Source: Edaphobacter aggregans (GTDB taxonomy: Bacteria > Acidobacteriota > Terriglobia > Terriglobales > Acidobacteriaceae). From it: DNA of 32,000 nt. Shown here in pieces: positions 4,601 through 30,804 of this stretch. The stretch covers positions 5,010,001 to 5,042,000 of the forward strand of contig NZ_RSDW01000001.1 of NCBI RefSeq assembly GCF_003945235.1, read 5' to 3'. The number at the start of each line of letters is the position of its first letter. The stretch's first letter is position 1. Made by a program: the position numbers and the translations under genes. The notes under the pieces were generated by a model. The model was not told the origin of the DNA. It worked only from the letters and a program-made list of their open reading frames with translations, and ran no database searches.

Positions 4601-5065
4601 GTCACTGAGTCTCAATTCGAGATTTTGAAAGCGGCAGAATGCTCACCTGATGCGCCAGGATTACAACGACAAGAGGATCATCACGACCTAGTACGCAAGG
4701 GGGTAGCGGTTCTCGTAGCCGAGGAAAAGTCTGTCGGTGGACAACTGGGACGTCCGTCGGGAGCTCGCTTCCGCACATACGAACGACTCAAACGCCATGC
4801 GGATCTGATGAAGGGTACATTGTGGGATATCCCGCAACTCGCTAAAGTGATCGAGGAGATTTATCGTTTTCCGTTGCGCCAATCAGCCGCGGATACACTC
4901 AACCGCCAGCTGAGATCTGGGATTTCCGATCAGAAGCTGGCTGAACTGACCATGGCACTACAAGACGACGATCGATTCTGCGTGGTTCAGGAAGAAGAAC
5001 ACGCCGATGAACCCCAGATAATCTGCTCGCTCGGGCTTACATCCGACAATAACCCGAAAGCCTGA
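1667..5065 (+). CDS. PLD(HKD) nuclease domain fused to an SNF2-family SF2 helicase/translocase
   Basis: One HKD motif: HAK at 2081-2089 and GSSNLT at 2141-2158. Helicase motifs: GLGKT 2513-2527, DESH 2720-2731, [33 protein letters not shown] prefer ATG 1667 (MPRIFDNIE...) over the track's TTG at 1628. Confidence 0.9.
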
Positions 5066-5072
5066 GGAAGCG

Positions 5073-8000
5073 ATGTCTCTCAACCCCACCAGAGCGCGAC
5101 AACATCTACAACATGGCGATCTCCGCTCCCTTTTTATTGAAGACCTTGGGTGGGATCACCATGAAAGCGGCGTTGAGATCACAGTCTCTGACGAACAGAT
5201 ATCGCTTCGCGGACTGGCACAGAAGCGTGGCATGATCGCGTATCAATACGCTACATCAGCGGGTCAGTCCCTGCCCGCCTATTCGCAACGTAGAAAAATC
5301 GAACACCAGATTGCCAAGGTCGCGCACGAACATTTGATTGTTTTCACTGACACAGCCAATCACACCCAGATATGGCAATGGGTGAAGCGGGAGAGTGGTA
5401 AGCCGGCAGCGTGCCGCGAGCATACGTTTCACACCTCACAACAGGGCGAGGCTTTGCTTCAGAAACTTCAAGCTATTGCTTTCACGCTTGAAGAAGAGGA
5501 GCGGCTGTCCCTCACCGATGTGACGCGACGAACACGCGCCGGATTTGATGTCGAACGTGTTACCAAGCGGTTTTATGACCGTTTTCAGAAGGAACATAAA
5601 GCGTTCCTGAAGTTCATTGAGGGAATCACCGAGCGCACCGATCACGAATGGTACGCGTCAGTTATGCTCAATCGGCTGATGTTTGTGTATTTCGTTCAGC
5701 GAAAGGGGTTCCTGGACGGAGACCGCGACTATCTTCGCAACCGGCTTAAGCAACTCCGGGAAGAGCACGGCCGGGATAAGTTTTATTCGTTTTATCGCTA
5801 TTTTCTTTTGCGCCTTTTCCATGAGGGCTTGGGTGGCAGAAAGAGAACGATCGATCTTGAAAAGCTTGTCGGTCGTATCCCTTATCTAAATGGAGGCCTC
5901 TTCGATATCCATGAACTTGAATCGCCAGATCGCTACGGGAAGACGATTCAAATTCCAGATGAGGCCTTCGAGCGAATCTTCGACTACTTTGACCAGTATC
6001 AGTGGCACTTGGATGAGAGGCCGCTTCGAGCGGATAACGAGATCAACCCAGACGTTCTTGGGTACATATTTGAGAAGTACATCAACCAAAAGCAGATGGG
6101 CGCGTACTACACAAAGGAAGATATCACCGAGTACATCTGCAAGAATACTGTTATCCCATTCTTGTTTGACGCCGCCCGCGCTGAGTGTAAGGTAGCCTTC
6201 GAAAATCCGAAAGGTCCGACTGTTTGGGATCTGCTCAAGAATGACCCTGACCGTTATATTTATTCCGCTGTCCGTCATGGAAATGACATACCATTCCCGG
6301 CCAGCATTCAAGATAGTCTTAGGTCCAAAACTCTGCAGAATGCAGTTAGTAGCGAGCCTGCACGCACGGTCGAATCGCGCATGGCTTGGAATAAGCAGGC
6401 TCCAGAAGCGCATGCACTCGCCACAGAGAACTGGCGCGAAGTCATAGACCGTCGGAGCCGATACGAAGAATTGAAGCGTCAGCTCACAGATGGTGTAGTT
6501 TCTTCGATAAACGGCTTGATCACACGCAATCTGGATATCCGCCAATTTGCGCAAGACGCAATCGAGAATTGCGAAGGCCCCGATCTGCTTCGCGCTTTCT
6601 GGCATTCCATTCAGGGTGTGACCATCCTCGATCCGACATGCGGCTCTGGCGCGTTCCTGTTCGCAGCCCTCAATATTCTCGAACCACTCTATGAGGCGTG
6701 TCTCGACCGAATGGAAGCGTTCATTGAGGATCTAGAACGATCCAGCGAGAAACACGGTCCGGAGAAGTTTTCGGATTTTCGCAAGGTTTTAGCTCAAGTC
6801 GCAGGGCACCCCAATCGGCGTTATTTCATTTTCAAGAGCATCATCCTTAATAACCTTTTTGGGGTCGACATCATGGAGGAGGCTGTCGAGATATGTAAGC
6901 TTCGCCTCTTCCTGAAACTTGCTGCCCAGGTCGAACCAGACCCCTCCCGTGAAAATCTCGGGATTGAACCTTTGCCGGACATCGATTTTAATATCCGGGC
7001 AGGCAACACACTTGTTGGTTATGCCACATACGACGAAGTGACAAAAGCTGCATCTAGCAGTTTTGACTTCAATCATTCAATGGCGAAGATCTCTTCGCAG
7101 GCGGCGGAACTACAACAGGGATTCGACGTATTCCGCGAGCAGCAAGTCGGAGGGGATAGCTCATTTCCGATCGAGGCCAAAAAGCAACTGCGAGAGCGTC
7201 TCAAGGCCCTCGACGATGAACTTAACCGACGTTTAGCGACAGAAAGTGGTGTTTCACCTGCCGACAAGCAAGCGTATGCCAAATGGCTGAGGTCTCACCA
7301 ACCGTTTCATTGGTTCGTTGAGTTTCACGGAATAATGAATCGCGGTGGATTTGATGTGATCATCGGAAATCCGCCATATGTAGTCAACACTCCCGAGAAG
7401 GTGTCCTATACGATCCAGTCGGACCGCTTTGTAACTTACCCCTGCAAGAATCTCTACGCCATTGTCTTCGAGCGTTCGCTGAACCTGGCCCACTCTATCT
7501 CATCTGTGGGATTGATAGTTCAACTGACGGCACTCTCTTCCGAAAAGATGAAGCCATTGCAAGACTTGCTGATCCAGAGAGGTTTCCTCGTAGCACCGTC
7601 TTTCCCGCGCCGCCCGGAATCAATATTTGACGGCGTGGAGATGCCGGTAACGATATTGATTTCTCGCTCAGAAGACAAAGGCATGTTTACTTCCCGGGTC
7701 TCGCGTTTTTACACCGAACAGCGATCTGTTGCGCTTAGCGTTTTGTCTCTAACTAACCATACCGCCAGGCTGCAAAATCACCGCATTGGGAAAATAGGGT
7801 CCGAACTGGAGCTCGGCATCCTTGCAAAGGTCCTAACGAACAAACTTCAGCTTGAATCACTCACAACTGAGGTGTCCGAAAACGCGCTTTACTATCAGGA
7901 GGCGTGTCGATACTGGGTAAAGGCTTGCAAAGGGTATCCATTTTTTCGACGTAACGGAGAATCGATGCGGCCTCCCCATGGACGCACTGCGTTCTTTCAG

Positions 8001-8393
8001 AGTCGTGAGGCCTGCGCATTCGCTGCATGTTTGATCACATCAACCCTGTTTTACTGGTTTTATAGCTGTTTTTCCGATTGCGAACATATCAACGACTCGT
8101 TACTGAAAGGGTTCAATATTCCCGGCTCCTGGAACACTGCGGATTGGGTGTCGATTGAGCGGCGCCTTGCACAGAGCCTCAAACAACACTCTCGTCGCAA
8201 GACTATCAATACGAAGCAGGGTCATAAGATCGAGTACGACGAACTGGATGCGTCGACGTCCAAGGAGATCCTCGATGATATTGACCGCGAGTTGGCGCAT
8301 CAGTATAGGCTCACGGAGGAGGAATTAGACTTCATCATTAGCTATGACATCAAGTACCGCATGGGTGTCGTGATGGAGGAAGAGGAGCAATGA
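5073..8393 (+). CDS. large gamma-class N6-adenine DNA methyltransferase (Eco57I/type IIG-like) with N- and C-terminal extensions, presumed target-recognition region
   Basis: SAM motif I ILDPTCGSGAFL (DPTCGSG at 6630-6650). Catalytic motif IV GNPPYV (NPPY at 7368-7379). Motif order I then IV. The gene starts 8 nt after the helicase stop, with a GAGGAAG RBS. Confidence 0.9.
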   Translation: MSLNPTRARQHLQHGDLRSLFIEDLGWDHHESGVEITVSDEQISLRGLAQKRGMIAYQYATSAGQSLPAYSQRRKIEHQIAKVAHEHLIVFTDTANHTQIWQWVKRESGKPAACREHTFHTSQQGEALLQKLQAIAFTLEEEERLSLTDVTRRTRAGFDVERVTKRFYDRFQKEHKAFLKFIEGITERTDHEWYASVMLNRLMFVYFVQRKGFLDGDRDYLRNRLKQLREEHGRDKFYSFYRYFLLRLFHEGLGGRKRTIDLEKLVGRIPYLNGGLFDIHELESPDRYGKTIQIPDEAFERIFDYFDQYQWHLDERPLRADNEINPDVLGYIFEKYINQKQMGAYYTKEDITEYICKNTVIPFLFDAARAECKVAFENPKGPTVWDLLKNDPDRYIYSAVRHGNDIPFPASIQDSLRSKTLQNAVSSEPARTVESRMAWNKQAPEAHALATENWREVIDRRSRYEELKRQLTDGVVSSINGLITRNLDIRQFAQDAIENCEGPDLLRAFWHSIQGVTILDPTCGSGAFLFAALNILEPLYEACLDRMEAFIEDLERSSEKHGPEKFSDFRKVLAQVAGHPNRRYFIFKSIILNNLFGVDIMEEAVEICKLRLFLKLAAQVEPDPSRENLGIEPLPDIDFNIRAGNTLVGYATYDEVTKAASSSFDFNHSMAKISSQAAELQQGFDVFREQQVGGDSSFPIEAKKQLRERLKALDDELNRRLATESGVSPADKQAYAKWLRSHQPFHWFVEFHGIMNRGGFDVIIGNPPYVVNTPEKVSYTIQSDRFVTYPCKNLYAIVFERSLNLAHSISSVGLIVQLTALSSEKMKPLQDLLIQRGFLVAPSFPRRPESIFDGVEMPVTILISRSEDKGMFTSRVSRFYTEQRSVALSVLSLTNHTARLQNHRIGKIGSELELGILAKVLTNKLQLESLTTEVSENALYYQEACRYWVKACKGYPFFRRNGESMRPPHGRTAFFQSREACAFAACLITSTLFYWFYSCFSDCEHINDSLLKGFNIPGSWNTADWVSIERRLAQSLKQHSRRKTINTKQGHKIEYDELDASTSKEILDDIDRELAHQYRLTEEELDFIISYDIKYRMGVVMEEEEQ

Positions 8394-8938
8394 CCGACCT
8401 GCAGAGCCTGACGCTAGACGGATTGCATGAACGTCACCCTGGTCTGACTCAAGCCTTGGGGCAAACCTATTGCGAGGCGGCGTCGGTTTGCTTTTCGCGT
8501 CATCATCAGCCGCCGGTCACTGTCTCACTGAAACACGGTGAAACTCAGCAGCTACGTTTCCTCAACTTTCTTGTTCCTGATGTGCGAGTTCGCAACGCAA
8601 ACGCCAATGAAATTGATGCCACGGAAGCGGCCGCGTACGGTGTATCACTAGCAGCCGTTGAAGCAGTTGCCGGATTGGTTGCTGTTCGAAGGGCGGAAAC
8701 GCTGACAGGTGCAGATTGGTATGTCGCTCCTGAGGGCACAGGTGCAGACGACCTGGAGGACTGCATCCGTTTGGAAGTATCAGGCATAAGCGGCGGAGGA
8801 AGTAGCGATGTCGTCCGTCGCCTTCAGGAAAAGGTCGCACAAACGGCGCGTGGGAAGAGCAACTTGCCCGCAATGGCATCCGTCGTTGGCTTCAAGGTGC
8901 TTGAAGTAGCAATTTCACCTTTAGGGGCAGGAGCATGA
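8390..8938 (+). CDS. hypothetical protein (182 aa), translationally coupled to the methyltransferase
   Basis: ATGA start/stop overlap at 8390-8393, with a GGAGGAAGAGGAG RBS inside the end of the upstream gene. Protein-like composition. A possible nuclease-like D...E pattern (GADWYV ... RLEVSG) is inference only. Confidence 0.7.
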   Translation: MTDLQSLTLDGLHERHPGLTQALGQTYCEAASVCFSRHHQPPVTVSLKHGETQQLRFLNFLVPDVRVRNANANEIDATEAAAYGVSLAAVEAVAGLVAVRRAETLTGADWYVAPEGTGADDLEDCIRLEVSGISGGGSSDVVRRLQEKVAQTARGKSNLPAMASVVGFKVLEVAISPLGAGA

Positions 8939-10047
8939 CGTGGGCTGAATTTCATGCCGCAAGTGAAAAGACCGCAATGGAAGCCGGGCAGTTTTTCCGC
9001 GACGGAAATATCACGCAGGCACTCCCGTTATACGCAAAGGCGGCCGAACTTGAACAACATGCGCTTGCAGTAGTTGACACTTCCAAGGTCCGCACCAGGG
9101 GTATCACGGCGGTTAGCGCAGTATCTTTGTGGTACAAAGCCGTTGACTACGATCGTGCAGAACAGTTGGCACATTCAATGCTCGGTGATCCATCAATACC
9201 GGCCTTTGCGAGAATTGATTTGCGTAATCTCGTCCAGGCCATCTGGACAGAGAGTTCTAAGCAGGCTGCAAATGTTTCGTTCCTTCCCGGGCAGGTGTAT
9301 GTCTCGGTTAAAGGAGGAGAGGTTGTAACTGGCGGGGCACCACTAGATTTGGTTATAGAGAAGGTACAGACGATTCAGGCAATGTTCTATCGGACCATCG
9401 AATTTATAAAAGACATGCCGCTGCGTCCCCGCGGCGCACCAATCCGTGACATCCAGGAAGCGTGTCGTCCATGGCTCTTTCAAGCCGCACCGGGAAGTTA
9501 CCAATTTTCTGTGGCGATTCAGGAACCGAAACAACGTGATTTTTTCAAAGAAGATATTCGGCCAGACCTTGTGGCAACGCAATTTCTTGACATTCTTAGG
9601 GCCACTACAAACGAAGATCAGAGGCAGCTGGAGCAGATCGTTCCCAGCACTGAATATCGCAACGTTTTCTTGAAGCTGTCGCGCAATCTCGCTCCCACAG
9701 GAAAGACCTTCGGGTCAATTGAATTTCGTACATCCACCGGTGAAGCTCCCATCGCGCTAACACCCGACGCAAGAACGGCCATTAACGAGACACTGAAGAA
9801 AGGCCGTCCCCCGGTATCACAGGATGCGCCCGAAGACGAAGAAGAGATTGTAGGAATGCTTCGAGCAGTTGATCTTGATAAAGACTGGCTCGATGTGACG
9901 GTCAATGGTCAGGCGGTCCATGTAACTGGGCTTGGAGATGCGATGGACGATCTCATTGGACCGATGGTAAACAAAATGGTGAAGGTACAGATTGTCAGGA
10001 AGGTCAATGGCCCATTTCGTTTCCGGGATATTGAAGTTAACGAATGA
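8935..10047 (+). CDS. hypothetical protein (370 aa) with a helical TPR-like N-terminus
   Basis: ATGA overlap at 8935-8938 with a GGGGCAGGAG RBS. Long ORF with balanced composition. No motif I can name. Confidence 0.75.
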   Translation: MTWAEFHAASEKTAMEAGQFFRDGNITQALPLYAKAAELEQHALAVVDTSKVRTRGITAVSAVSLWYKAVDYDRAEQLAHSMLGDPSIPAFARIDLRNLVQAIWTESSKQAANVSFLPGQVYVSVKGGEVVTGGAPLDLVIEKVQTIQAMFYRTIEFIKDMPLRPRGAPIRDIQEACRPWLFQAAPGSYQFSVAIQEPKQRDFFKEDIRPDLVATQFLDILRATTNEDQRQLEQIVPSTEYRNVFLKLSRNLAPTGKTFGSIEFRTSTGEAPIALTPDARTAINETLKKGRPPVSQDAPEDEEEIVGMLRAVDLDKDWLDVTVNGQAVHVTGLGDAMDDLIGPMVNKMVKVQIVRKVNGPFRFRDIEVNE

Positions 10048-21718: not shown

Positions 21719-22438
21719 CTAGGGCACGATCTTCAGGGGATAGTAATAAACCGTCTCGTCGCTCTCGTGCGTGGTCGAGAGGTAGTATGCGCCGGGATTC
21801 AAGTGCTCAAGGTGCAGAGTTGTCTCAAGCAGAGTCTGCTGCCCTTTCTGCAATGCAGTCCCTTCACTGAATGGCTCTTTCTGATCTGGCTGTCTTGTTC
21901 TGCTGACTGTCACAAGATACGAGCCAGTCTCACTGAGAGCCGGGAGAATGAGCGTGACTTTTACTGTCCTTGCGGGAAGAGTGGCGAAGGCCTGTTCGTT
22001 GGAAGATCCCCGCGTGGCTGCGGCCGTAGAAAGGTCAACGGTTTCGGATATCGGAGACAACGAAGAATCCTGTTGGGCCACTTCATCAGGGCTCCGATGG
22101 GTGTGCAAGCGGTAGGCAAGAAACAAAACGCCTACGAGGACAAGAGTCGCCAGCGCCGTCAGACCGGCTAACAAAGGTATGTTCCGAGGTTTTGGGCTCT
22201 CCTGACGCAGCTCCATTAAGCGCCGCAGACATCGAGCACAATGAGAGACGTGGACGACACGCGGATCGAGAAGTGAGGGCTTTCGCGAGGACCAGGCCAG
22301 CTTTCTCAGGAACTCTTCATCGATCTCTTCACAATCAGAATCATCAACAACATGTGCCGGTGGGAGCTTGCGGTAGAGCTCAGCAAACCATTCTTCTGAT
22401 GGAACCTTTCGTGCGTCCGGCTTATTTTCAAAGTTCAA
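21719..22438 (-). CDS. putative anti-sigma factor (zf-HC2-like, single TM)
   Basis: HVSHCARCLRRL (Hx3Cx2C), then the TM segment IPLLAGLTALATLVLVGVLFLAY and a ~120-aa extracytoplasmic tail. TTG start with a GAGGA RBS. It lies downstream of a sigma-like gene. Confidence 0.45.
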   Translation of the reverse strand: MNFENKPDARKVPSEEWFAELYRKLPPAHVVDDSDCEEIDEEFLRKLAWSSRKPSLLDPRVVHVSHCARCLRRLMELRQESPKPRNIPLLAGLTALATLVLVGVLFLAYRLHTHRSPDEVAQQDSSLSPISETVDLSTAAATRGSSNEQAFATLPARTVKVTLILPALSETGSYLVTVSRTRQPDQKEPFSEGTALQKGQQTLLETTLHLEHLNPGAYYLSTTHESDETVYYYPLKIVP

Positions 22439-22577
22439 GACGAAGTCCTCGCATGTACGCTCAACCCCTCCGAACGAATCGAAATCACGTTCGGACGTGC
22501 TTACAGCACCTTCAGACCCACGACGACAGAGCCTTAGGGAAATCCTTATTGGGGAGGAATCCGATATTGAGTGATTT

Positions 22578-23144
22578 TTAGCGAACTACACGCATGCCCC
22601 TTCCTAACCGCTCCAGCGCGGCATCAGCCTCCCGACGGAAGGCAATCCGTATCGAGTTATGGTCAACTTCAAACGTCTTTCCGATCTCGCGCCATGAGTA
22701 ACCCATCCACAGCCACGTGGCTACTTCCTGAGCCTGGGGCGAAAGCAGGTCCAGAATCTCTCGGATGAGCATAGCCTCGGTTGGATCTGGGATCTCTGTT
22801 GAAGAGAAGTTTAGCTCAAGGTCATGGGTTGACCCGACGGCCTCTTCTTTTCTTCTTCGATTCGCCATCTGCTTGGTGACCCGGCGTACCTGGCTTCTCA
22901 GACGGGCCGTGAGTTTCTCCCCCGAAGGCCGGGGAGAGGTACGAAGTGCATACGAGTGGATGGACTCAAGCGCTTGCTCCATAATGTCCACACCCAAACT
23001 TTCGTCATGCAGGTAAGACCACGCCGAGAGTTGAGCATACGGCCAGGTCCTCTGCACGGCCGCCATCAGGCCATTTCGGAGCTCATCCTCCAGAGAATCC
23101 TGCCACTTCCAGAGGAGTTCAGCAGTATAAGTCTTGGTGGACAT
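22578..23144 (-). CDS. sigma-70 family (ECF-like) sigma factor, divergent
   Basis: Region-4-type HTH: LSPQAQEVATWLWMGYSWREIGKTFEVDHNSIRIAFRREADAAL. Region 2 is atypical. I prefer ATG 23144 (MSTKTY...) over the track's TTG at 23159. Confidence 0.5.
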   Translation of the reverse strand: MSTKTYTAELLWKWQDSLEDELRNGLMAAVQRTWPYAQLSAWSYLHDESLGVDIMEQALESIHSYALRTSPRPSGEKLTARLRSQVRRVTKQMANRRRKEEAVGSTHDLELNFSSTEIPDPTEAMLIREILDLLSPQAQEVATWLWMGYSWREIGKTFEVDHNSIRIAFRREADAALERLGRGMRVVR

Positions 23145-23417
23145 GAGTTTTGAGACCAAGAGCGATTTGTACCGCGGATAAAAGAGTACCGTCAGACGTG
23201 TTTTGCGTCCAGTCGAACAGAGTTTTTTCCCTGTTTTCCACAGACACTTGGGAATCCAAAGTGCCTTTAGCTTTCAGGAGGGCTGTAGCGTCCGACCACC
23301 TCCCCAAAGCACCAGTCAAATTGTTCGTCGATTCGCAGGGAAAATCTGTCTATATGACACTTCCTTTTCCGGGCTCCTTGTGCATACTGTACGGGAACGA
23401 AGGGAGAATCGCCCCGA

Positions 23418-24313: not shown

Positions 24314-24868
24314 CTATGCGGGTCGGCGTTCTTTGATCTCCCACAGAGATTGATCACAACTCGCATTGACGCCACACCCGCGACAGCGGTTCTTCTGATT
24401 GTGACTCCTGTCAGCGCAGTTGTTGAATCGAGATTTACGAACCTCCTGCACGACAGTAGCGAACCACGCAAGATTTTCGTCGGTTGGGACTACTTTGCGC
24501 GCTGTCTCCCCGCTATAGATCACCAGCCCGTAGGGCACTCGTTCCCGGTAGTTCTCCCGCACCAGCACAATATAGGCAAGCACCTGAATCAGGTGATTGG
24601 GATAGACGCCGCCCTGTGCCGGCGGCTTGGCCGACTTCTTGAATTCAACAGGAATAATGCCTTCGGCATTTCTGATCAGGCAGTCTGGCTTGCCGTGGAT
24701 GCCGTATGCGCTGGACCGTAAGGTCACGGCGGCCATGGGCTGCCCGGAATGGTCCTGGTAAAACACATCGCCGTTTGGCAGCCCGAGCCGCCGGCGCCGC
24801 TGCTGGCTCCGACGCAATAGGACGAACCCCACGAGTAAGGCCAGGATTGCGAACGCGAGGAGAATCAT
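24314..24868 (-). CDS. Cas4-like PD-(D/E)xK nuclease, C-terminal half with an N-terminal TM anchor
   Basis: TM segment ILLAFAILALLVGFVLL. Nuclease motifs GKPDCLIRNAEGIIPVEFKKS (D...ExK) and QVLAY (QxxxY). C-terminal CRGCGVNASC (Cx2Cx5C). ATG 24868 overlaps the upstream stop as ATGA. Confidence 0.7.
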   Translation of the reverse strand: MILLAFAILALLVGFVLLRRSQQRRRRLGLPNGDVFYQDHSGQPMAAVTLRSSAYGIHGKPDCLIRNAEGIIPVEFKKSAKPPAQGGVYPNHLIQVLAYIVLVRENYRERVPYGLVIYSGETARKVVPTDENLAWFATVVQEVRKSRFNNCADRSHNQKNRCRGCGVNASCDQSLWEIKERRPA

Positions 24869-25137
24869 TTCAAGAAACTCCACACAAACAACACAAGCAA
24901 AAGCAAGGCGATGAGGAGAGCCGCATAGGCGCCGCCGGTAAGCGCATCCGTTCTTGCGAGTTGCTCGCCCTGCTCTTTATGCCACATCTCGCCTTGCGCC
25001 TGGGCCTCGCGTGCCTCGGCGTCCGATGGCTTCTTCTGAACCATCTTGAGCCACCATGCACGCCGGCAGTACACGAACTCCGCCAACTCACTCACACGGA
25101 TTGGATCTTCAGGCCCTGGCACCTCATCATTCGGCAT
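24865..25137 (-). CDS. Cas4-like nuclease, N-terminal fragment with a C-terminal TM anchor
   Basis: VSELAEFVYCRRAWWLK matches the N-terminal Cys motif of Cas4/RecB-family Fe-S nucleases. It ends in the TM segment AYAALLIALLLLVLFVWSFL. Confidence 0.6.
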   Translation of the reverse strand: MPNDEVPGPEDPIRVSELAEFVYCRRAWWLKMVQKKPSDAEAREAQAQGEMWHKEQGEQLARTDALTGGAYAALLIALLLLVLFVWSFLK

Positions 25138-25197: not shown

Positions 25198-25785
25198 ATG
25201 TTCCGAGAATTGTCGCCTCTACTGACCCGGCGCAGCCTGGTCCTCACCGTATCGTCGATCGGCGAGGGCCGCATCCGCCTCACGATCACTCCGCGTCCCA
25301 CCGATAAGGATGAATCCAGGGAAGTGATTCAACCCCTCGCCGTCGAAGGAACCGCCGAAGAGCTCGATACCGATCTGGCCAAGGCCCTGATCGACTATAC
25401 GGCGGAACACCTGACGCTTGCCCGTTCGCTCGAGCAGGTCAAGGCAAACATGGAAGCGGCACTTAAAGAAGCCAAGGAAGAAGCAGCGAAGAAGGTCGCA
25501 GATGCGAAGAGGGCCATCAAACCAGCTTCGACAAAGACCGCCATGGCCCCTGCGCCCGAAGTCAGTAAGCCTGCGCCTCCAAGCCTGTTTGATGCCCCCA
25601 AGGAGCCTACGGCCAATCCGTCGGCGGCGAAAAAGCAGGTTGCAGACGACGATGAGGACGATGATTCGGATATTCCTTCACCCGGGGCGGCGGTGCAGCC
25701 CAGCATGTTTGACACCCAAAGCGAGGAAAACGAAATTCTGAAGGAGGCATTTTATGGCACTGATAACGACCACGCTGCCGCGTGA
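25198..25785 (+). CDS. PRTRC system protein E-like
   Basis: MFRELSPLLTRRSLVLTVSSIGEGRIRLTITP ... GTAEELDTDLAKALIDYTAEH, then an Ala/Lys/Pro-rich linker and an acidic tail (DDDEDDDSD). This matches my memory of the PRTRC E family. AGGAG RBS. The ORF upstream of 25198 is antisense to the Cas4 genes. Confidence 0.65.
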   Translation: MFRELSPLLTRRSLVLTVSSIGEGRIRLTITPRPTDKDESREVIQPLAVEGTAEELDTDLAKALIDYTAEHLTLARSLEQVKANMEAALKEAKEEAAKKVADAKRAIKPASTKTAMAPAPEVSKPAPPSLFDAPKEPTANPSAAKKQVADDDEDDDSDIPSPGAAVQPSMFDTQSEENEILKEAFYGTDNDHAAA

Positions 25786-25960
25786 ATTTATCCTCGACGG
25801 CCGAAAGCTGGCCGATCCGAACCCCGCAATGTCCGTTGATGAGGTACGGACTCATTACACCGGGATCTATCCGGCGCTCAACAACTCCTCCTACGAGGAG
25901 CAGCTGACCGAACGCGCCCGAACCATCACCTTCACTACTTCAATCGGGCACAAGGGTTAG
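25754..25960 (+). CDS. PRTRC system protein C-like (prokaryotic ubiquitin-like beta-grasp)
   Basis: 68 aa. Strong GAAGGAGG RBS. Ends ...TSIGHKG with a C-terminal Gly, as remembered for PRTRC C / Prok_Ub proteins (..IGTKG). Confidence 0.7.
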   Translation: MALITTTLPREFILDGRKLADPNPAMSVDEVRTHYTGIYPALNNSSYEEQLTERARTITFTTSIGHKG

Positions 25961-25966
25961 AAGACA

Positions 25967-26197
25967 GTGGCCCGCCCGCTGCGTAAGACAACTCCGCAAT
26001 CCCGCAGGGTCCTGCTGGCAGAGCTCGACCGGCTCAGCCGGCAGGAACGCACTCCCAATGAACAGACCATCGAGAGGTTCCTCCAATGCAAACAGGAGCA
26101 AAAGGCATCGGCAATTGCAGCCGCGATTTCGAAAACCGGGAGTCATCCGCGGGAGATGCTGGCAACTCCGGTCGGCTTGCTGCCCTGGCTGCACTAG
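25967..26197 (+). CDS. possible small helical protein (76 aa, GTG start); overlaps the next ORF by 112 nt
   Basis: Starts 7 nt after the protein C stop. Helical, charged composition. It competes with the 5' end of the 26086 ORF, so it is uncertain. Confidence 0.3.
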   Translation: MARPLRKTTPQSRRVLLAELDRLSRQERTPNEQTIERFLQCKQEQKASAIAAAISKTGSHPREMLATPVGLLPWLH

Positions 26198-27252
26198 GCC
26201 TCAGACGACACAACCCAGGGCTGGTTCTAGCCGCGCTGAAGTCAATCCCAACCTCGTATACCTACACCCAGGGAGGGGACACCGCGGTTGCCTTTGCGCG
26301 CAGCCTCGTGGAGCTGGGCCTGGGCTCGCCCGAGATGTGGCAACGTCACAATGCCAATCCATCGCTGTTCATTCGGAGCGCGATCAATGAATGGCTTCAA
26401 TCGTTGGGAGCTGCGGACCTCGTTAATGATGTGAGCATCGATCTGGCCATCGTCGATGAACTTGATGACGGCATCCGGCAAGACAAAGGAAAGCTCTTCA
26501 TCCTGTTAGAAACCTCCGATGGCTGTGGATTTCTGTGCGTAGGCAGCGCCCTGCGACTGCTTGAGGAAGAACACGCAGGCCTGGGGCGCTCCTTCTATAT
26601 CGTGCTCTCAACTTTCATGAACCGGTGGATGGAGATCTACGACAGTTCGCGAGCGGAGTACTTCTATGAGCGCTGGAAAGAAAGCATCGAGATGGACATC
26701 GAGGACTGGGACGGCTCCGAGGCAGCGTTTCAGTTGTATTGCGAGAATAACGACATCCATCTTCCAGACCTTGTGGCGTCGACTCCCTCCTGTATCCGGG
26801 AGATCAACTTCCACAAAGAATTAAAAAAGCTAAAGCAACACATTCATATGCTGAGGCAACACCGGGCAGGGAAGCATGGAGCATGGATCGAACGTGTCCT
26901 CGCAATTGCTCGCTTCCTCAAGCCCGAACCTGGCATGGATTACCGGGAGATCGATGGGATCTGGGACGATGGCCCGCTGCCAAACTGGGCATTGGCGTTC
27001 CAACCCCATGACCCCATTACCCAGGCCTTCGATGAGGAAGCGCAGTGTATGTACGAGTCCTCGCATGCGCCGGCATGGATTGCGTCGCTTGATCCAACGG
27101 ACACCAGGGACGTCAGACGTGTGCTCACGCACATCCAGCGGCTCGTCACCATCAACCGGGAGCTGGTATGCCTCTCCAAAGCCCTCGAAAGGAGCGCACC
27201 CATTGCAGGCACAGATCAGTCTGAGTTCCACCAAGAGCTTCGAGTTGCGTGA
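26086..27252 (+). CDS. PRTRC-associated protein in the position of protein F
   Basis: 388-aa ORF between the Ubl and E2-like genes. GAGAGG RBS 8 nt before the ATG. Assignment rests on position and size only. The first ~30 aa are Gly/Ser-rich and may not be real. Confidence 0.5.
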   Translation: MQTGAKGIGNCSRDFENRESSAGDAGNSGRLAALAALGLRRHNPGLVLAALKSIPTSYTYTQGGDTAVAFARSLVELGLGSPEMWQRHNANPSLFIRSAINEWLQSLGAADLVNDVSIDLAIVDELDDGIRQDKGKLFILLETSDGCGFLCVGSALRLLEEEHAGLGRSFYIVLSTFMNRWMEIYDSSRAEYFYERWKESIEMDIEDWDGSEAAFQLYCENNDIHLPDLVASTPSCIREINFHKELKKLKQHIHMLRQHRAGKHGAWIERVLAIARFLKPEPGMDYREIDGIWDDGPLPNWALAFQPHDPITQAFDEEAQCMYESSHAPAWIASLDPTDTRDVRRVLTHIQRLVTINRELVCLSKALERSAPIAGTDQSEFHQELRVA

Positions 27253-27925
27253 GGCTCTCCTTATCTATCGCACCGACAGAGACTCGGAGCGAACAGGGCC
27301 CTCCGCTTTCGTCACGAAACATAGCATTGCGGTCGATCCTTCCGGGGCCCCGTCTCTTGGCGCAGGATCCCCGATCCAGGAAGGAGACCTCCTCACGCTC
27401 TGTGCGCAACTACGCAGTGCGCTTCCGATCGAGTTTCTTCCCTCGAACGTGCTGGTCCGGTCGGAGGACTCCATTACGTGGTGGACGCCGGCATCCATGC
27501 GGCGGATGTTTTACGCGAAGGAAAAGAGCACCGAAGTTGCGCAGTTGTCGGGAAAGAGGTTTCCTCAGCCGCCGTTGGTCTTTCGCGCGCGCAAGCGTCT
27601 TCTCGAAGTCCGTGCACTCTTGCGGGACGAACGACCGAACCAACAGACGGCTCTCTACCGCGCGCCATACTGGAACGTAAACGACGACGGCGATGTGTGT
27701 CTCGGCACCGCACGTGTGCCTTCACAGGCGACTGTCGATTCGCTGCCGAGGTGGGAGAGCGCGTTCTTTGAAAGTGAGTTCACTCATCCCAATGCTTCAA
27801 AGAAACTGACCGAATATCCCGGCGGCTTCGTCGGACTGTGGAGATCGCTCGCCGAAAAACGACGATTTCCTGCAGAGTTTCTTGCCGCCGCCAACCAAAC
27901 TCTCCATCAGTTCATCACCTCGTAA
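27203..27925 (+). CDS. PRTRC system protein B-like (prokaryotic E2/UBC-like)
   Basis: ALLIY ... WWTPASMRRMFY ... PPLVFRA ... LYRAPYWNVNDDGDVCLG (Cys codon at 27698-27700) ... WESAFFESEFTHPN ... GGFVGLW. There is no ATG after the upstream stop. The TTG at 27203 is preceded by AAAGGAG. Confidence 0.7.
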   Translation: MQAQISLSSTKSFELREALLIYRTDRDSERTGPSAFVTKHSIAVDPSGAPSLGAGSPIQEGDLLTLCAQLRSALPIEFLPSNVLVRSEDSITWWTPASMRRMFYAKEKSTEVAQLSGKRFPQPPLVFRARKRLLEVRALLRDERPNQQTALYRAPYWNVNDDGDVCLGTARVPSQATVDSLPRWESAFFESEFTHPNASKKLTEYPGGFVGLWRSLAEKRRFPAEFLAAANQTLHQFITS

Positions 27926-27970
27926 GCGCAGCGGACCATCGCGAGCTCTTATCTGCCGGGAGGCTCGTCG

Positions 27971-28783
27971 ATGAAGATTGTCCACACGCTATCGAATCTA
28001 GATAGTCCATACCGGCGCGCGCTCCGCGTTCTTCTTATCGGCTCGGGAGGAAACGGCAGCGCAGTCCTCTTTGGACTGCCATACCTGCACCGCGCGCTCG
28101 AGGCGTGGGGCAGGCCAGAAGGCATCGACGTGACGGTCATGGATGGCGATGTCGTGTCACCTACCAACTGCGTGCGGCAGCCCTTCGGTGCCGCCGACGT
28201 GGGGCACAACAAGGCCACCATCCTGGTCAATCGAGTCAACATCTTTCATGGGCTCGCGTGGCGCTCGGAGGAGTGCTTCTTTTCGCAGCACACCGGAAAC
28301 CCGGGCACGGCCTACGACAGCACCATCGATTTCGTGATCAGCTGCGTGGACACCCGGGCTGCGCGTCGAGAGATGCATGAAGCCTTCCAATCCTGCTCAG
28401 GCCCCTGGCGTAATCTGCGCTACTGGCTCGACTTGGGGAATAACGAAAGCAATGGGCAGTTTGTTCTGGGCCAGCCTCTGAATGACATCAACCGCCGGAG
28501 CCGAACCCGGTTGCGAACCGTGACCGAACTCTTTCCCTCGATCATGGATATCTCGCAAGGCGAAGGGCCATTGCCCAATTGCTCTGCTGCCGAGGCCCTT
28601 TCGCGCCAGGAACCATTCATCAACAGCGTCCTGGCTGCCAGTGCTTTGGCCATGCTCACCCGGCTCCTTCGCTATGGCAGCCTCAACCATCATGGTGCGT
28701 TCTACAACGCGGAACCAGGACGTACAACCCCGATTCCGATTGATCCCGAAGCGTGGAACAAACAAGTGAAGTTACAACGATAA
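27971..28783 (+). CDS. PRTRC-type ThiF/E1-like adenylyltransferase
   Basis: Rossmann motif GSGGNG at 28040-28057. MDGDVVSPTNCVRQPF is an E1-type D.D.V...N..RQ motif. 270 aa. GGGAGG RBS. Confidence 0.85.
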   Translation: MKIVHTLSNLDSPYRRALRVLLIGSGGNGSAVLFGLPYLHRALEAWGRPEGIDVTVMDGDVVSPTNCVRQPFGAADVGHNKATILVNRVNIFHGLAWRSEECFFSQHTGNPGTAYDSTIDFVISCVDTRAARREMHEAFQSCSGPWRNLRYWLDLGNNESNGQFVLGQPLNDINRRSRTRLRTVTELFPSIMDISQGEGPLPNCSAAEALSRQEPFINSVLAASALAMLTRLLRYGSLNHHGAFYNAEPGRTTPIPIDPEAWNKQVKLQR

Positions 28784-28826: not shown

Positions 28827-29438
28827 TCAAAAAACGAGGGGCAGAATATAGTTGCCGCTGGTCGGGCCTCCTTGAGGTGCCTCGAGTGGTGTAGAGGCAC
28901 CGGCGGTGCTTGCTACATCGGTGTGCACACCACCCGCCGCACAGACACCGTTCGTCGGCTGCCCATTAAACCATAGACTGAAGCACTTCGAACAGAAACG
29001 CCAATTATCTTGCGTTGATTGAATATTTTTCCCAGTATGAATGAAGGGTAGAATATAGTTGCCGCTGGTCGGGCCTCCTTGAGGTGTCTCGGGTGGTGTA
29101 GAGGCACCAGCGTTGCTTTCTCGATCGGTGTGCACACCACCCGCCGCACAGACACCGTTCGTCGGCTGCCCATTAAACCATAGACTGAAGCACTTCGAAC
29201 AGAAACGCCAATTATCTTGTGTTGATTGCGTATTTGTCCCAGTATGAATGAAGGGTAGAATATAGTTGCCGCTGGTCGGGCCTCCTTGAGGTGTCTCGGG
29301 TGGTGTAGAGGCACCAGCGTTGCTTTCTCGATCGGTGTGCTCACCACCCGCCGCACAGACACCGTTCGTCGGCTGCCCATTAAACCATAGACTGAAGCAC
29401 TTCGAACAGAAACGCCAATCAGCTTGCGTAGATGCCAT
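28827..29438 (-). CDS. three-repeat Cys-rich protein (69-aa module x3), unknown family, no signal peptide
   Basis: AAGAGGAAA RBS. Each module reads WRFCSKCFSLWFNGQPTNGVCAAGG.H...GGPTSGNYILP. Confidence 0.75.
   Translation of the reverse strand: MASTQADWRFCSKCFSLWFNGQPTNGVCAAGGEHTDRESNAGASTPPETPQGGPTSGNYILPFIHTGTNTQSTQDNWRFCSKCFSLWFNGQPTNGVCAAGGVHTDRESNAGASTPPETPQGGPTSGNYILPFIHTGKNIQSTQDNWRFCSKCFSLWFNGQPTNGVCAAGGVHTDVASTAGASTPLEAPQGGPTSGNYILPLVF
28835..29420. repeat. three tandem 207-bp DNA repeats (coding)
   Basis: GAATATAGTT recurs at 28844, 29051 and 29258. Copies 2 and 3 differ at one position over their first ~162 nt by manual comparison. Copy 1 is slightly more diverged. Confidence 0.9.
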
Positions 29439-30606: not shown

Positions 30607-30658
30607 CATTTATCTTTCGTTGGCGCAAGACTTTTAGGTGTTTGATGCTGCTCTCGTG
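30607..30658 (+). repeat. copy B of the araC leader element
   Basis: CATTTATCTTTCGTTGGCGCAAGACTTTTAGGTGTTTGATGCTGCTCTCGTG. About 42 of ~54 aligned columns match copy A by eye. It abuts the truncation point of the SRAP fragment. Confidence 0.5.
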
Positions 30659-30804
30659 TCTCGATCGCGGCGAATTACGGGCTGATGCGTCGTCGGGGCG
30701 ACGTTGTAGTCCCACGGAGCCAGGATAACGTCATCGCCATGCACGACGCGGAACGATTCAGCGATCTTCTGTTTGTCAGAGCGTCGGTAGTAGCGGCCAC
30801 ACAT
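30634..30804 (-). pseudogene. truncated SOS-response-associated peptidase (SRAP/YedK-like) 5' fragment
   Basis: MCGRYYRRSDKQKIAESFRVVHGDDVILAPWDYNVAPTTHQPVIRRDRDTR has the invariant MCGR start and the YNVAP motif of SRAP proteins. It stops after 56 codons, whereas full-length SRAP proteins are roughly 200+ aa. It falls below the ORF-track length cutoff. Confidence 0.6.

What the first reader, a model, noticed from the sequence alone, without database searches (positions are those of the whole stretch)
25198..28783. Reduced PRTRC-type ubiquitin-like conjugation cassette (E, Ubl, F-position, E2-like, E1) with no ParB or JAB partner
Seen in the sequence:
- a 68-aa beta-grasp-sized protein ending in ..KG;
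- an E2-like protein with a candidate catalytic Cys in NVNDDGDVCLG;
- a 270-aa ThiF/E1 with GSGGNG and D.D.V...N..RQ;
- a protein E-like gene and a 388-aa unknown.

Established knowledge: TIGRFAMs defined PRTRC (ParB-Related, ThiF-Related Cassette) as a conserved set of mostly plasmid- or ICE-borne genes of unknown function. E1/E2/Ubl(/JAB) operons such as Bil and type II CBASS Cap2/Cap3 act in antiphage defence.

This cassette appears stripped of several expected partners. I recognise no ParB-like gene, no actin-like protein D, and no ORF with a JAB/MPN HxH...D signature. It is paired divergently with the split Cas4-like nuclease and lies near an excisionase-type HTH gene.

Inference: it is a minimal Ubl-conjugation module, possibly repurposed as a defence or MGE-maintenance system whose target and function are still undescribed.
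Basis: partly seen in the sequence, partly recalled or inferred. Interest (0 to 1): 0.75.

Follow-up and report, generated by a model that had tools for sequence, protein, structure and literature searches.

The report
ParB-less, JAB-less PRTRC ubiquitin-like cassette
This is a real, intact operon for a bacterial ubiquitin-like tagging system of the already catalogued but never tested PRTRC family, in a stripped-down six-gene form that is common on mobile elements of soil Acidobacteria.

Summary
Curated models identify 25198-28783 as PRTRC E, PRTRC C (Prok_Ub, ending KG-stop), PRTRC B (Prok-E2_D) and the PRTRC ThiF-type E1. The 388-aa "unknown" is a divergent PRTRC F. The window is Edaphobacter aggregans chromosome, and public databases already name the B and F genes as PRTRC.

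The cassette is reduced compared with pMOL28, which reads ParB-E-C-F-B-A-ThiF, where A is DUF2016 plus JAB. I found no PRTRC-type ParB or A in the window or in 84 related loci (up to ±10 kb where the contig allows).

Loss of JAB or ParB is not unique. Pelobacter, Thiodictyon and Pseudomonas plasmids lack A. Phage Dina and a Polaromonas plasmid lack ParB.

Cas4 adjacency is confined to the nearest relatives. No cassette protein matches a defence model beyond weak E1 similarity. Recurrent neighbours are SSB, DUF3150, methyltransferase, helicase and integrase genes.

Best reading: a working E1-E2-Ubl module of an integrated mobile element with a pre-matured Ubl. Function remains untested.

Verdict: new variant of a known kind, moderate interest.

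The parts
25198..25785 (+). PRTRC protein E (195 aa). It has an N-terminal globular domain of about 105 aa, then a Lys/Ala-rich stretch and an acidic low-complexity tail.
   Evidence: TIGR03741 scores 74 bits and PF19556 39.6 bits. An AGGAG lies 8 nt upstream of the ATG.
25579..25593 (+). PSLFD short linear motif in the tail of E. A second copy, QPSMFD, lies at 25696-25713.
   Evidence: An [LMI]F[DGES]-type motif, or a terminal L[FL] tip, is present in 41/66 E tails, against 1.5 expected from shuffles. Canonical E proteins end in DLSSLL, DDLQLF, SFELF and similar tips. The resemblance to the beta-clamp-binding motif QL[SD]LF is inference only.
25754..25960 (+). PRTRC protein C, a 68-aa ubiquitin-like protein (Prok_Ub) that ends in KG directly before the stop codon.
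   Evidence: TIGR03738 scores 48 bits and PF14454 53.5 bits. The KG-stop ending is found in 76/79 homologues. GAAGGAGG lies upstream. The gene overlaps the 3' end of E by 32 nt.
25967..26197 (+). Protein X, a 76-aa conserved small protein with the motifs RF.QC and (W)LPP/LLPWL. It matches no Pfam, NCBIfam, PADLOC or PHROG family.
   Evidence: X is 51-54% identical in L001 and L002 and was found in 48 related loci. Searches gave 356 homologues of about 70-80 aa and 136 cluster representatives at 50% identity. It is independently called as a gene in L001, L002 and L100.
26086..27252 (+). Divergent PRTRC protein F (alpha-hel2 family). The ORF is 388 aa as annotated, but the conserved core begins near 26200. 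The first 37 residues overlap X out of frame and are not conserved.
   Evidence: UniRef names it 'PRTRC system protein F'. hhalign against the canonical F profile gives probability 89% and E 2e-6. Fourteen of 45 homologues hit PF14456. In the AF2 model (pLDDT 78), residues 1-62 have pLDDT below 50. No PDB fold match was found.
27203..27925 (+). PRTRC protein B, an E2-like protein (Prok-E2_D) of 240 aa. Cys166 lies in the motif YWNVNDDGDVCLG, and His195 is invariant.
   Evidence: TIGR03737 scores 194 bits and PF14460 137 bits. The sequence is identical to the NCBI protein 'PRTRC genetic system protein B'. The Cys is invariant in 91/91 homologues. It aligns to Cys85 of human UBE2D2.
27971..28783 (+). 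PRTRC ThiF-family E1, 270 aa, a single adenylation domain. It carries GSGGNG and D.D.V...N..RQ, plus invariant Cys123 and Cys202.
   Evidence: TIGR03736 scores 238.6 bits and PF00899 44.7 bits. Conservation was measured across 80 homologues. The closest solved structure by sequence is the Cap2 E1 domain, at E 0.005.

Best explanation
The region is a six-gene, translationally coupled operon, E-C-X-F-B-ThiF. It encodes a PRTRC-type ubiquitin-like conjugation system and belongs to the backbone of an integrated mobile element of Edaphobacter aggregans.

Likely mechanism (inferred):
1. The single-domain ThiF-type E1 adenylates the free C-terminal Gly68 of the Ubl (protein C).
2. The Ubl passes, probably through the invariant E1 Cys202, to the invariant Cys166 of the E2 (protein B).
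3. The Ubl is then attached to lysines of a target.
4. E, X and F are the specificity or scaffold part of the system. E carries a conserved LF-type docking motif in a disordered tail.

Because the Ubl is made in mature form, no JAB is needed to process it. With no dedicated isopeptidase, tagging would be one-way, or reversed by something else.

The biological role is most likely the one PRTRC has on plasmids, ICEs and temperate phages. That role would be support of the element's own DNA replication, establishment or maintenance, not host defence.

Shown here: gene identities, operon layout, conservation of the catalytic residues, absence of ParB and JAB, and the mobile-element context. Inferred: thioester relay, target class and role.
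For: - Curated HMMs match above their cutoffs for E, C, B and ThiF. F is homologous by profile comparison.
- The operon is tight, with overlaps or short gaps between genes and Shine-Dalgarno sites.
- The same gene order is seen in the 80 Acidobacteriota genome loci kept from a scan that found 241 relatives, plus metagenome contigs. None has a PRTRC-type ParB or A in the flanks held (up to ±10 kb), while the same HMMs recover all controls.
- Catalytic residues are conserved: E2 Cys in 91/91, E1 Cys123 and Cys202 in 80/80, the nucleotide loop, and the Ubl KG-stop in 76/79. The E2 active-site motif aligns with YHPNINSNGSIC of UBE2D2.
- Residues 110-239 of the E2 model follow the order helix, four strands, Cys loop, three helices, as in UBC folds.
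- In JAB+ cassettes, 5 of 7 Ubls carry residues after the KG (3 to 72 aa). In JAB- cassettes, 0 of 5 do, and neither do the acidobacterial ones.
- Mobile-element context: neighbours include SSB, DUF3150, a DUF6094 methyltransferase, a helicase and an integrase. One contig whose name ends in '_c' (182 kb, possibly circular) carries MobA/MobL and ArdC. Several genomes hold two copies. The backbone is shared with L099 and L100.
- The same neighbour types flank canonical PRTRC.
- Iyer et al. 2006 (PMC1779556, Table 1 row 6d) predicted this operon type and the conserved His C-terminal to the E2 Cys. That His is H195 here.
Against: - No experiment exists for any PRTRC system. A literature search found only annotations.
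- Foldseek found no significant PDB match for the E2 model, so the UBC fold rests on Pfam and on topology.
- The E1 catalytic Cys is assigned from conservation only.
- The target is unknown.
- 36 of 68 well-covered related loci depart from the compact layout, through interruption, frameshift or an undetected E. Selection on the cassette is therefore not universal.
- F lacks a canonical start codon at the position used by its homologues.
- My ParB and JAB models are PRTRC-specific and could miss very divergent versions. Only 3.2 kb downstream of the cassette is visible in the window itself.
Confidence: 0.55

Rival explanations
1. It is an anti-phage or anti-plasmid defence system that works like Bil or type II CBASS. 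The Ubl would be conjugated to invader proteins, and the cassette would be defence cargo of the element.
For: - E1, E2 and Ubl chemistry is shared with Bil and Cap2. The E1 is weakly similar to Cap2 and PADLOC E1-E2 models.
- The window also carries a type IIG restriction-modification enzyme and an HKD-SNF2 helicase.
- A PRTRC cassette sits next to the CII-like regulator region of temperate phage Dina.
- Iyer et al. considered a protective role.
Against: - E, C, X, F and B match no PADLOC model.
- Recurrent neighbours across 85 loci are SSB, DUF3150, methyltransferase-helicase and integrase genes, not defence islands.
- The restriction-modification and helicase block is about 18 kb of extra cargo that is absent from the closest relatives L099 and L100.
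- Canonical cassettes are linked to a ParB.
Confidence: 0.15
2. It is a decaying remnant. A canonical PRTRC lost ParB and JAB by deletion, and the remaining genes are no longer functional as a system.
For: - 36 of 68 well-covered acidobacterial loci are interrupted, frameshifted or have no adjacent E detected.
- Insertions of IS21, toxin-antitoxin pairs and other genes lie mostly between F and B.
- The start codon of F is lost in the window clade.
Against: - The same six-gene order persists down to about 40% protein identity. The genome scan found 241 relatives and kept 80 loci.
- All window ORFs are intact and coupled.
- Catalytic residues and the KG terminus are invariant or nearly so.
- 32 of 68 loci are compact and complete.
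- A lineage-specific gene (X) is conserved within the cassette.
Confidence: 0.1
3. The E1 and Ubl act as an acyl-adenylate or sulphur-carrier pair, as ThiF/ThiS and MoeB/MoaD do. No protein tagging takes place, and B, E, F and X have unrelated roles.
For: The E1 is a short single-domain ThiF/MoeB-like protein with weak hits to thiF models. No isopeptidase is present.
Against: - An E2-family protein with an invariant Cys and a UBC-like active-site motif always lies next to the E1.
- No sulphurtransferase, rhodanese or cofactor-synthesis gene recurs nearby.
- The related canonical cassettes carry a JAB isopeptidase.
Confidence: 0.05

Closest known systems
Canonical PRTRC cassette (TIGRFAMs/NCBIfam; operon type 6d of Iyer, Burroughs and Aravind 2006), e.g. 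Cupriavidus metallidurans pMOL28
   Same: It has homologous E, C (Prok_Ub), F (alpha-hel2), B (Prok-E2_D) and ThiF in the same order. It sits on mobile elements beside DNA-metabolism genes.
   Different: pMOL28 reads ParB-E-C-F-B-A-ThiF. The window lacks ParB and A (DUF2016+JAB) and has an extra 76-aa gene X. Its F is too divergent for the curated models and carries a clade-specific LETSDGCGF motif. Its Ubl ends at KG, whereas the pMOL28 Ubl ends KGAYAQI.
JAB-less PRTRC cassettes on plasmids (Pelobacter propionicus pPRO1, Thiodictyon pTs417, Pseudomonas antarctica pP27494_1, P. aeruginosa pPUV-13)
   Same: There is no protein A, B is followed directly by ThiF (except in Thiodictyon, where ThiF follows E), and the Ubl has no residues after the terminal Gly or Ala.
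   Different: They keep the PRTRC ParB upstream of E. X is not annotated, and only weak X-like ORFs are seen in pPRO1 and pMOL28.
ParB-less PRTRC cassettes (Ralstonia phage Dina; Polaromonas sp. JS666 plasmid 2)
   Same: There is no ParB next to the cassette, and the element is not a classical partition-dependent plasmid locus.
   Different: They keep protein A (JAB), and their Ubl is a 129-146-aa precursor with a long C-terminal extension.
BilABCD (bacterial ISG15-like / type I Bil ubiquitination system)
   Same: It comprises separate E1, E2 and Ubl proteins, and Ubl conjugation to lysines has been shown experimentally (bioRxiv 10.1101/2023.09.26.559546).
   Different: The Bil E1 has tandem inactive and active adenylation domains (PF14459 N-terminus) and a mobile Cys domain, and Bil includes a JAB DUB. 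Here the E1 is a 270-aa single domain, the E2 belongs to another family (PF14460), there is no DUB and no PADLOC match, and E, X and F have no Bil counterpart.
Type II CBASS Cap2/Cap3
   Same: The E1 adenylation domain is the closest solved relative by sequence (Cap2, E 0.005).
   Different: Cap2 is a fused E2-E1 that conjugates a CD-NTase and pairs with the JAB protein Cap3. No CD-NTase, effector or Cap3 is present here, and E1 and E2 are separate genes.

Membership tests
PRTRC (ParB-Related, ThiF-Related Cassette; NCBIfam/TIGRFAMs) | ThiF-family E1 matching TIGR03736 above its cutoff | tested here: met
   238.6 bits against a cutoff of 144.75, E 6e-71.
PRTRC (ParB-Related, ThiF-Related Cassette; NCBIfam/TIGRFAMs) | Protein B (TIGR03737 / PF14460 Prok-E2_D) | tested here: met
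   194 bits against 131.45, and PF14460 at 137 bits.
PRTRC (ParB-Related, ThiF-Related Cassette; NCBIfam/TIGRFAMs) | Protein C (TIGR03738 / PF14454 Prok_Ub) | tested here: met
   48 bits against 45.95, just above the cutoff. PF14454 scores 53.5 against 25.
PRTRC (ParB-Related, ThiF-Related Cassette; NCBIfam/TIGRFAMs) | Protein E (TIGR03741 / PF19556) | tested here: met
   74 bits against 37.95, and PF19556 at 39.6 against 26.
PRTRC (ParB-Related, ThiF-Related Cassette; NCBIfam/TIGRFAMs) | Protein F (TIGR03742 / PF14456 alpha-hel2) | tested here: inconclusive
   The window protein has no curated-model hit. Homology is nonetheless supported. hhalign of the clade profile against the canonical F profile gives E 2e-6 and probability 89% over 267 columns. 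Fourteen of 45 homologues hit PF14456, best E 3.9e-5. The position in the operon is the same, and UniRef gives the name.
PRTRC (ParB-Related, ThiF-Related Cassette; NCBIfam/TIGRFAMs) | PRTRC ParB-family protein (TIGR03734) next to the cassette | tested here: not met
   An HMM built from five PRTRC ParBs gave no hit in the window or in 84 related loci, while the controls scored E 1e-245 or better. NCBIfam and Pfam scans found no ParB.
PRTRC (ParB-Related, ThiF-Related Cassette; NCBIfam/TIGRFAMs) | Protein A (TIGR03735; DUF2016 + Prok-JAB) between B and ThiF | tested here: not met
   The B-ThiF gap is 45 nt. The A HMM gave no hit in any acidobacterial locus, while the controls scored E 1e-99 or better.
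PRTRC (ParB-Related, ThiF-Related Cassette; NCBIfam/TIGRFAMs) | Protein D (TIGR03739, actin-like) | tested here: not met
   None of the 18 window ORFs scanned gave an NCBIfam hit. D is also absent from the annotated stretches around the canonical cassettes inspected.
PRTRC (ParB-Related, ThiF-Related Cassette; NCBIfam/TIGRFAMs) | Carried by a plasmid, ICE or other mobile element | tested here: met
   Relatives lie next to MobA/MobL, ArdC, SSB, DUF3150 and an integrase. Several genomes hold two copies. The flank downstream of ThiF is variable. The ends of the element in the window were not mapped.
E1-E2-Ubl protein-conjugation systems (generic) | Ubl with an exposed C-terminal glycine | tested here: met
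   ...IGHKG-stop in the window, and KG-stop in 76/79 homologues. The beta-grasp fold itself was not modelled.
E1-E2-Ubl protein-conjugation systems (generic) | E1 adenylation domain with a nucleotide-binding loop and a catalytic Cys | tested here: inconclusive
   GSGGNG and the D.D...N..RQ motif are conserved. Cys123 (in the SCVD motif) and Cys202 are invariant in 80/80. Which Cys forms the thioester, if any, is inferred.
E1-E2-Ubl protein-conjugation systems (generic) | E2 with a UBC fold and a catalytic Cys | tested here: inconclusive
   The Cys is invariant in 91/91. The motif aligns to UBE2D2 Cys85, at hhalign E 0.02 over 21 columns. The secondary-structure order of the model is UBC-like. 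However, Foldseek found no significant PDB match (best E 0.09, unrelated), and there is no sequence match to PDB.
E1-E2-Ubl protein-conjugation systems (generic) | Formation of thioester intermediates and isopeptide conjugates | not testable with these tools
   This needs biochemistry.
BilABCD | [quoted passage not shown] | tested here: not met
   The E1 is a 270-aa single ThiF domain. There is no PF14459, no JAB, and no PADLOC hit for C or B.
Type II CBASS (Cap2/Cap3) | CD-NTase and effector with a fused E2-E1 (Cap2) and a JAB (Cap3) | tested here: not met
   No CD-NTase, effector or Cap3 is present in the window. E1 and E2 are separate genes. Only weak E1 similarity is seen, at 16-25 bits.

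The most novel reading that the evidence does not exclude
PRTRC is a replisome-directed ubiquitin-like tagging system. Protein E docks on the beta sliding clamp, or another replication hub, through the conserved LF motif in its disordered tail. It brings the E2~Ubl to a replication or element-establishment protein. The acidobacterial form would then show that ParB and the JAB isopeptidase are dispensable accessories, and that the small protein X, so far unannotated in canonical cassettes, is a core subunit.
Probability: 0.15. Interest if true: 0.75.

Novelty: new variant of a known kind. Interest (0 to 1): 0.4.

Why it matters
PRTRC is one of the bacterial E1/E2/Ubl operon types predicted in 2006. 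Unlike Bil and CBASS Cap2, I found no experimental study of it in the searchable literature. It is nevertheless widespread on plasmids, including large Pseudomonas aeruginosa plasmids, and on ICEs and some temperate phages.

The acidobacterial lineage described here is a natural minimal version. It has no ParB and no isopeptidase, and its Ubl is made ready for use. That defines the smallest gene set to reconstitute. It also shows which parts are accessory, and it adds one overlooked small gene (X) and one conserved docking motif in E as handles for finding the target.

The window itself does not reveal a new kind of system.

Tried and rejected
- **F fold.** A Foldseek search of the F model (pLDDT 78) against PDB found nothing significant, so the fold has no solved relative and gives no functional clue.
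- **E2 fold.** A Foldseek search of the E2 model (pLDDT 85) found no UBC hit. A sequence profile against PDB also found nothing.
- **Is X part of canonical F?** The idea that X is the N-terminal part of canonical F was not supported.
- **Are the Ubl extensions X fused to the Ubl?** I tested the long C-terminal extensions of the Ubl in Xanthomonas, Dina and Polaromonas. hhalign gave E 0.46, 0.41 and 0.042, the last over a 6-residue FLRC match only. The idea was dropped and remains only a positional equivalence.
- **Is X-F a programmed frameshift product?** In most homologues F has its own ATG overlapping or abutting the X stop, which is ordinary coupling. One library protein (P0396) reads as an X-F fusion but could be an assembly error.
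- **Is Cas4 a functional partner?** Rejected, because it clusters in only 8 of 85 loci.
- **Does F replace JAB as a Cys protease through the LETSDGCGF motif?** No evidence beyond the conservation of the motif.
- **Technical dead ends.** A six-sequence E2 alignment was too diverse for the genome scan. The window's own proteins are not in the contig index, so close relatives were used instead. PHROGs gave nothing for cassette proteins.
- **Literature.** Only annotations were found. One preprint expands PRTRC wrongly as a pilus system.

Full report
**1. What is at 25198-28783**

Six ORFs lie head to tail on the + strand.

- **E, 25198-25785.** It matches PRTRC_E: TIGR03741 scores 74 bits against a cutoff of 37.95, and PF19556 also hits.
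- **C, 25754-25960.** This 68-aa protein matches PRTRC_C (48 bits against 45.95) and Pfam Prok_Ub (53.5 bits). It ends ...IGHKG-stop.
- **B, 27203-27925.** It matches PRTRC_B (194 bits against 131.45) and Prok-E2_D (137 bits). Its real start is TTG 27203, behind AAAGGAG. That gives the 240-aa protein NCBI already calls 'PRTRC genetic system protein B [Edaphobacter aggregans]'.
- **ThiF, 27971-28783.** It matches PRTRC_ThiF (238.6 bits against 144.75).

The source is the E. aggregans chromosome (locus tag EDE15_4223).

**2. The 388-aa 'unknown' is a divergent protein F**

- The window protein hits no Pfam or NCBIfam model.
- UniRef names it PRTRC F.
- A profile of its 22 homologues aligns collinearly with a profile of six canonical F proteins. 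hhalign gives probability 89% and E 2e-6 over 267 columns.
- Fourteen of 45 homologues reach PF14456 (alpha-hel2), best E 3.9e-5. No other family recurs in more than two.
- An AlphaFold model (pLDDT 78, pTM 0.75) is mixed alpha/beta and has no significant PDB neighbour.
- The first 37 residues of the annotated ORF overlap the preceding gene out of frame. They are not conserved and are modelled with low confidence. Most homologues start at an ATG that is CTC in this strain.

**3. A sixth gene was missed**

- ORF 25967-26197 (76 aa, here called X) is 51-54% identical in two related contigs. That is as conserved as its neighbours.
- It recurs in 48 related loci, with a conserved RF.QC and a C-terminal (W)LPP motif.
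- A word-indexed search found 356 homologues of about 70-80 aa. An exhaustive profile search of 1.84 billion representatives found 136 clusters.
- None has a Pfam domain or a functional name.
- Gene callers call it independently.
- Canonical cassettes show no annotated equivalent. Unannotated ORFs at the same C-F junction of pMOL28 and pPRO1 show weak similarity: hhalign E 5e-4 and 1.3e-4, with 0/30 shuffles reaching the observed score. This is suggestive only.

**4. How reduced the cassette is**

The pMOL28, Aromatoleum, Xanthomonas, Burkholderia and Sphingobium plasmids read ParB-E-C-F-B-A-ThiF. Protein A is DUF2016 plus Prok-JAB, and ParB carries ParB_N plus an HTH. In the window, B and ThiF are 45 nt apart and nothing ParB-like precedes E.

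I built HMMs from the canonical ParB and A proteins and searched every six-frame ORF of at least 40 aa.

- The search covered the window, four metagenome contigs and 80 genome loci, with up to ±10 kb of flank where the contig allowed.
- There was no hit in any acidobacterial locus.
- All controls scored between E 1e-99 and 1e-263.
- Precomputed Pfam annotation of eight related contigs agrees.

The genome scan found 241 relatives among GTDB species representatives. The 80 loci kept are nearly all Terriglobia, and several genomes hold two copies. The E-C-X-F-B-ThiF form is thus a lineage trait, not a local accident.

**5. Neither loss is unique**

- Already annotated PRTRC cassettes lack A in Pelobacter pPRO1, Thiodictyon pTs417, P. 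antarctica pP27494_1 and P. aeruginosa pPUV-13.
- They lack ParB in Ralstonia phage Dina and Polaromonas plasmid 2.
- Pseudomonas accounts for 141 of the 348 plasmid records with a B homologue.
- The new points here are the combination of both losses and the presence of X.

**6. A pattern that explains why JAB can be lost**

- In JAB+ cassettes, 5 of 7 Ubls continue past the KG. The extensions are AYAQI, AHA, and 61, 62 and 72 residues.
- In the five JAB- cassettes from plasmids and the window, none continues past the terminal residue.
- Among the surveyed homologues, 76 of 79 end at KG-stop.
- JAB is therefore probably needed at least for precursor processing.
- A lineage that encodes mature Ubl can do without it.
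- Whether conjugates are ever removed in such lineages is unknown.

**7. Catalytic equipment**

- The E2 Cys (C166 in YWNVNDDGDVCLG) is invariant in 91 homologues.
- His195, C-terminal to that Cys, is invariant too. Iyer et al. noted this for their operon type 6d.
- hhalign places the motif on YHPNINSNGSIC of human UBE2D2, Cys on Cys (E 0.02, 21 columns).
- The AlphaFold model (pLDDT 85) has an extra N-terminal beta-rich domain. It then follows the UBC order of helix, four strands, Cys loop and three helices.
- Foldseek gave no significant PDB match, so the structural test is inconclusive.
- The E1 keeps GSGGNG, the Asp/Asn/Arg-Gln motif and two invariant cysteines, C123 and C202.
- The E1 is a 270-aa single domain. 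Its nearest solved relative by sequence is the Cap2 E1 domain, at E 0.005.

**8. Protein E**

Behind a globular domain of about 100 aa lies a highly variable Lys/Ala- then Asp/Glu-rich tail. The tail contains a short conserved motif: PSLFD, LGLFD, LSLFD or SLFG.

- With a strict pattern it is found in 41 of 66 tails, against 1.5 expected from shuffling.
- Canonical E proteins end in DLSSLL, DLASLL, DDLQLF, NNLFA, SFELF or SLW.
- This resembles the beta-clamp-binding motif QL[SD]LF, which I cite from established knowledge and did not test.
- Two plasmids carry a dnaN paralogue beside the cassette.
- I treat clamp docking as a lead, not a finding.

**9. Context**

- The closest relatives share a backbone: SNF2 helicase, Gp157, RecJ-like DHH, two minus-strand genes, an HTH protein, a Cas4-like nuclease, the cassette, a variable stretch, and SRAP.
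- In the window, about 18 kb of extra cargo sits between Gp157 and the RecJ-like gene. It comprises an HKD-SNF2 helicase, a full-length type IIG restriction-modification enzyme (1030 bits) and a class II ribonucleotide reductase.
- Across 85 loci the only recurrent neighbours are SSB (17 loci), DUF3150 (16), a DUF6094 methyltransferase (16), a helicase (13), an AAA protein (9) and a DUF1257 protein (10), a radical-SAM protein (10) and an integrase (8).
- One contig whose name ends in '_c' (182 kb, possibly circular) has MobA/MobL and ArdC.
- The same gene types flank canonical PRTRC.
- The Cas4-like gene clusters in only 8 loci.
- No cassette protein except the E1 (weakly) matches PADLOC, and none of those tested matches PHROGs.
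- About half of the well-covered loci (32 of 68) are compact and complete. The rest are interrupted, mainly between F and B, by IS21, toxin-antitoxin pairs or other genes, or have frameshifts.

**10. Interpretation**

The identity as a PRTRC variant is secure. The mechanism, E1 adenylation of Gly68, relay to the E2 Cys and attachment to a target, follows from family knowledge and from the conserved residues. It has never been tested for any PRTRC. The literature holds only annotations and the 2006 prediction.

The context favours a role in the element's own DNA replication, establishment or maintenance over host defence. I put about 0.55 on that reading, 0.15 on defence, 0.1 on a relic and 0.05 on a non-conjugating carrier role.

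**11. Verdict**

This is a correctly spotted, real and intact cassette. It is a member of a catalogued but uncharacterised family, in a reduced six-gene form that is new as a described variant but not a new kind of system. Interest is moderate. Its value is as a natural minimal set for the first biochemical test of PRTRC.

Noticed in passing
window 24314-25137, minus strand: The Cas4-like PD-(D/E)XK nuclease is encoded as two translationally coupled ORFs. The N-terminal piece is 90 aa (24865-25137). The nuclease core is 24314-24883, with a probable ATG at 24868 overlapping the TGA stop. Each piece carries a hydrophobic, transmembrane-like segment at the junction. The same split, in different frames, is conserved in L001, L002, L010 and L014, and is called as two genes in L099 and L100. 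It is therefore not a random frameshift.
   Followed up: partly
window 1628-10047, plus strand: A defence-like block. It holds an HKD(PLD)-SNF2 helicase (PADLOC candidate C3a139, E 2.5e-49) and a full-length type IIG restriction-modification enzyme (PDLC03628, 1030 bits), followed by two unknown genes of 182 and 370 aa. The block is absent from the closest related elements, so it looks like inserted cargo.
   Followed up: partly
window 28827-29438, minus strand: A 203-aa protein made of three near-identical 69-aa repeats. At the DNA level there are 2.9 copies with a 207-nt period and 95% matches. Each repeat reads WRFCSKCFSLWFNGQPTNGVCAAGG.H. Only weak zinc-ribbon hits were found, and the function is unknown.
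   Followed up: partly
window 26176-26202: The ATG that starts F in most homologues (...LAALT-M-ARQ) is CTC in this strain and in its 87%-identical relative (ALGL). F must therefore start at the upstream ATG 26086, overlapping X by 112 nt, or at a non-canonical codon by reinitiation after X.
   Followed up: partly
window 25579-25593 and 25696-25713; E proteins of L001-L101: A conserved LF-type short linear motif lies in the disordered tail of PRTRC E (PSLFD, QPSMFD). Canonical E proteins end in DLSSLL, DDLQLF or SFELF. The motif resembles the beta-clamp-binding motif. Plasmid dnaN paralogues lie beside the cassette in Xanthomonas pLH201.1 and P. aeruginosa pPUV-13.
   Followed up: partly
L007 7652-7918 (pMOL28) and L090 5699-5956 (pPRO1): Unannotated ORFs span the C-F junction in a frame different from both genes and show weak profile similarity to X. 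hhalign gives E 5e-4 and 1.3e-4, with 0/30 shuffles as good. One library protein (P0396) reads as an X-F fusion.
   Followed up: partly
F proteins; window about 26500-26530 (residues 140-149): A nearly invariant LETSDGCGF motif, with a conserved Cys, is specific to the acidobacterial F clade. It is absent from canonical F proteins, which share only the acidic FDEE/[IL]DD motif.
   Followed up: no
window 30634-30804, minus strand: Only a 56-aa ORF starting MCGRYY... is present. It resembles the N-terminus of an SRAP (YedK) protein. That reading rests on my own knowledge of the MCGR start, since the ORF was not scanned against any family model. Related elements have SRAP genes of 143-263 aa at the equivalent flank, one of them split by a group II intron. 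The window copy may be truncated.
   Followed up: no
window 21719-23159, minus strand: Two conserved genes of the element backbone. One is a 193-aa protein with a weak sigma-70 region-4-like match (E 0.005). The other is an adjacent 239-aa protein whose sequence shows a central hydrophobic stretch. Together they may form a sigma/anti-sigma-like pair.
   Followed up: no
L023, L035, L039, L042, L045, L071, L076, L080, L085: In these cassettes the F-B junction is a recurrent insertion point. Inserts include IS21-like elements, PIN or nucleotidyltransferase toxin-antitoxin pairs, a possible ligase-like gene (read from the sequence, not scanned) and larger gene blocks. B-ThiF mostly stays adjacent.
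   Followed up: partly
literature: A 2025 preprint on a Sphingopyxis ICE expands PRTRC as 'Pilus Retraction/Contraction system'. This is a misreading of the TIGRFAMs acronym and shows how little is known about the system.
   Followed up: no
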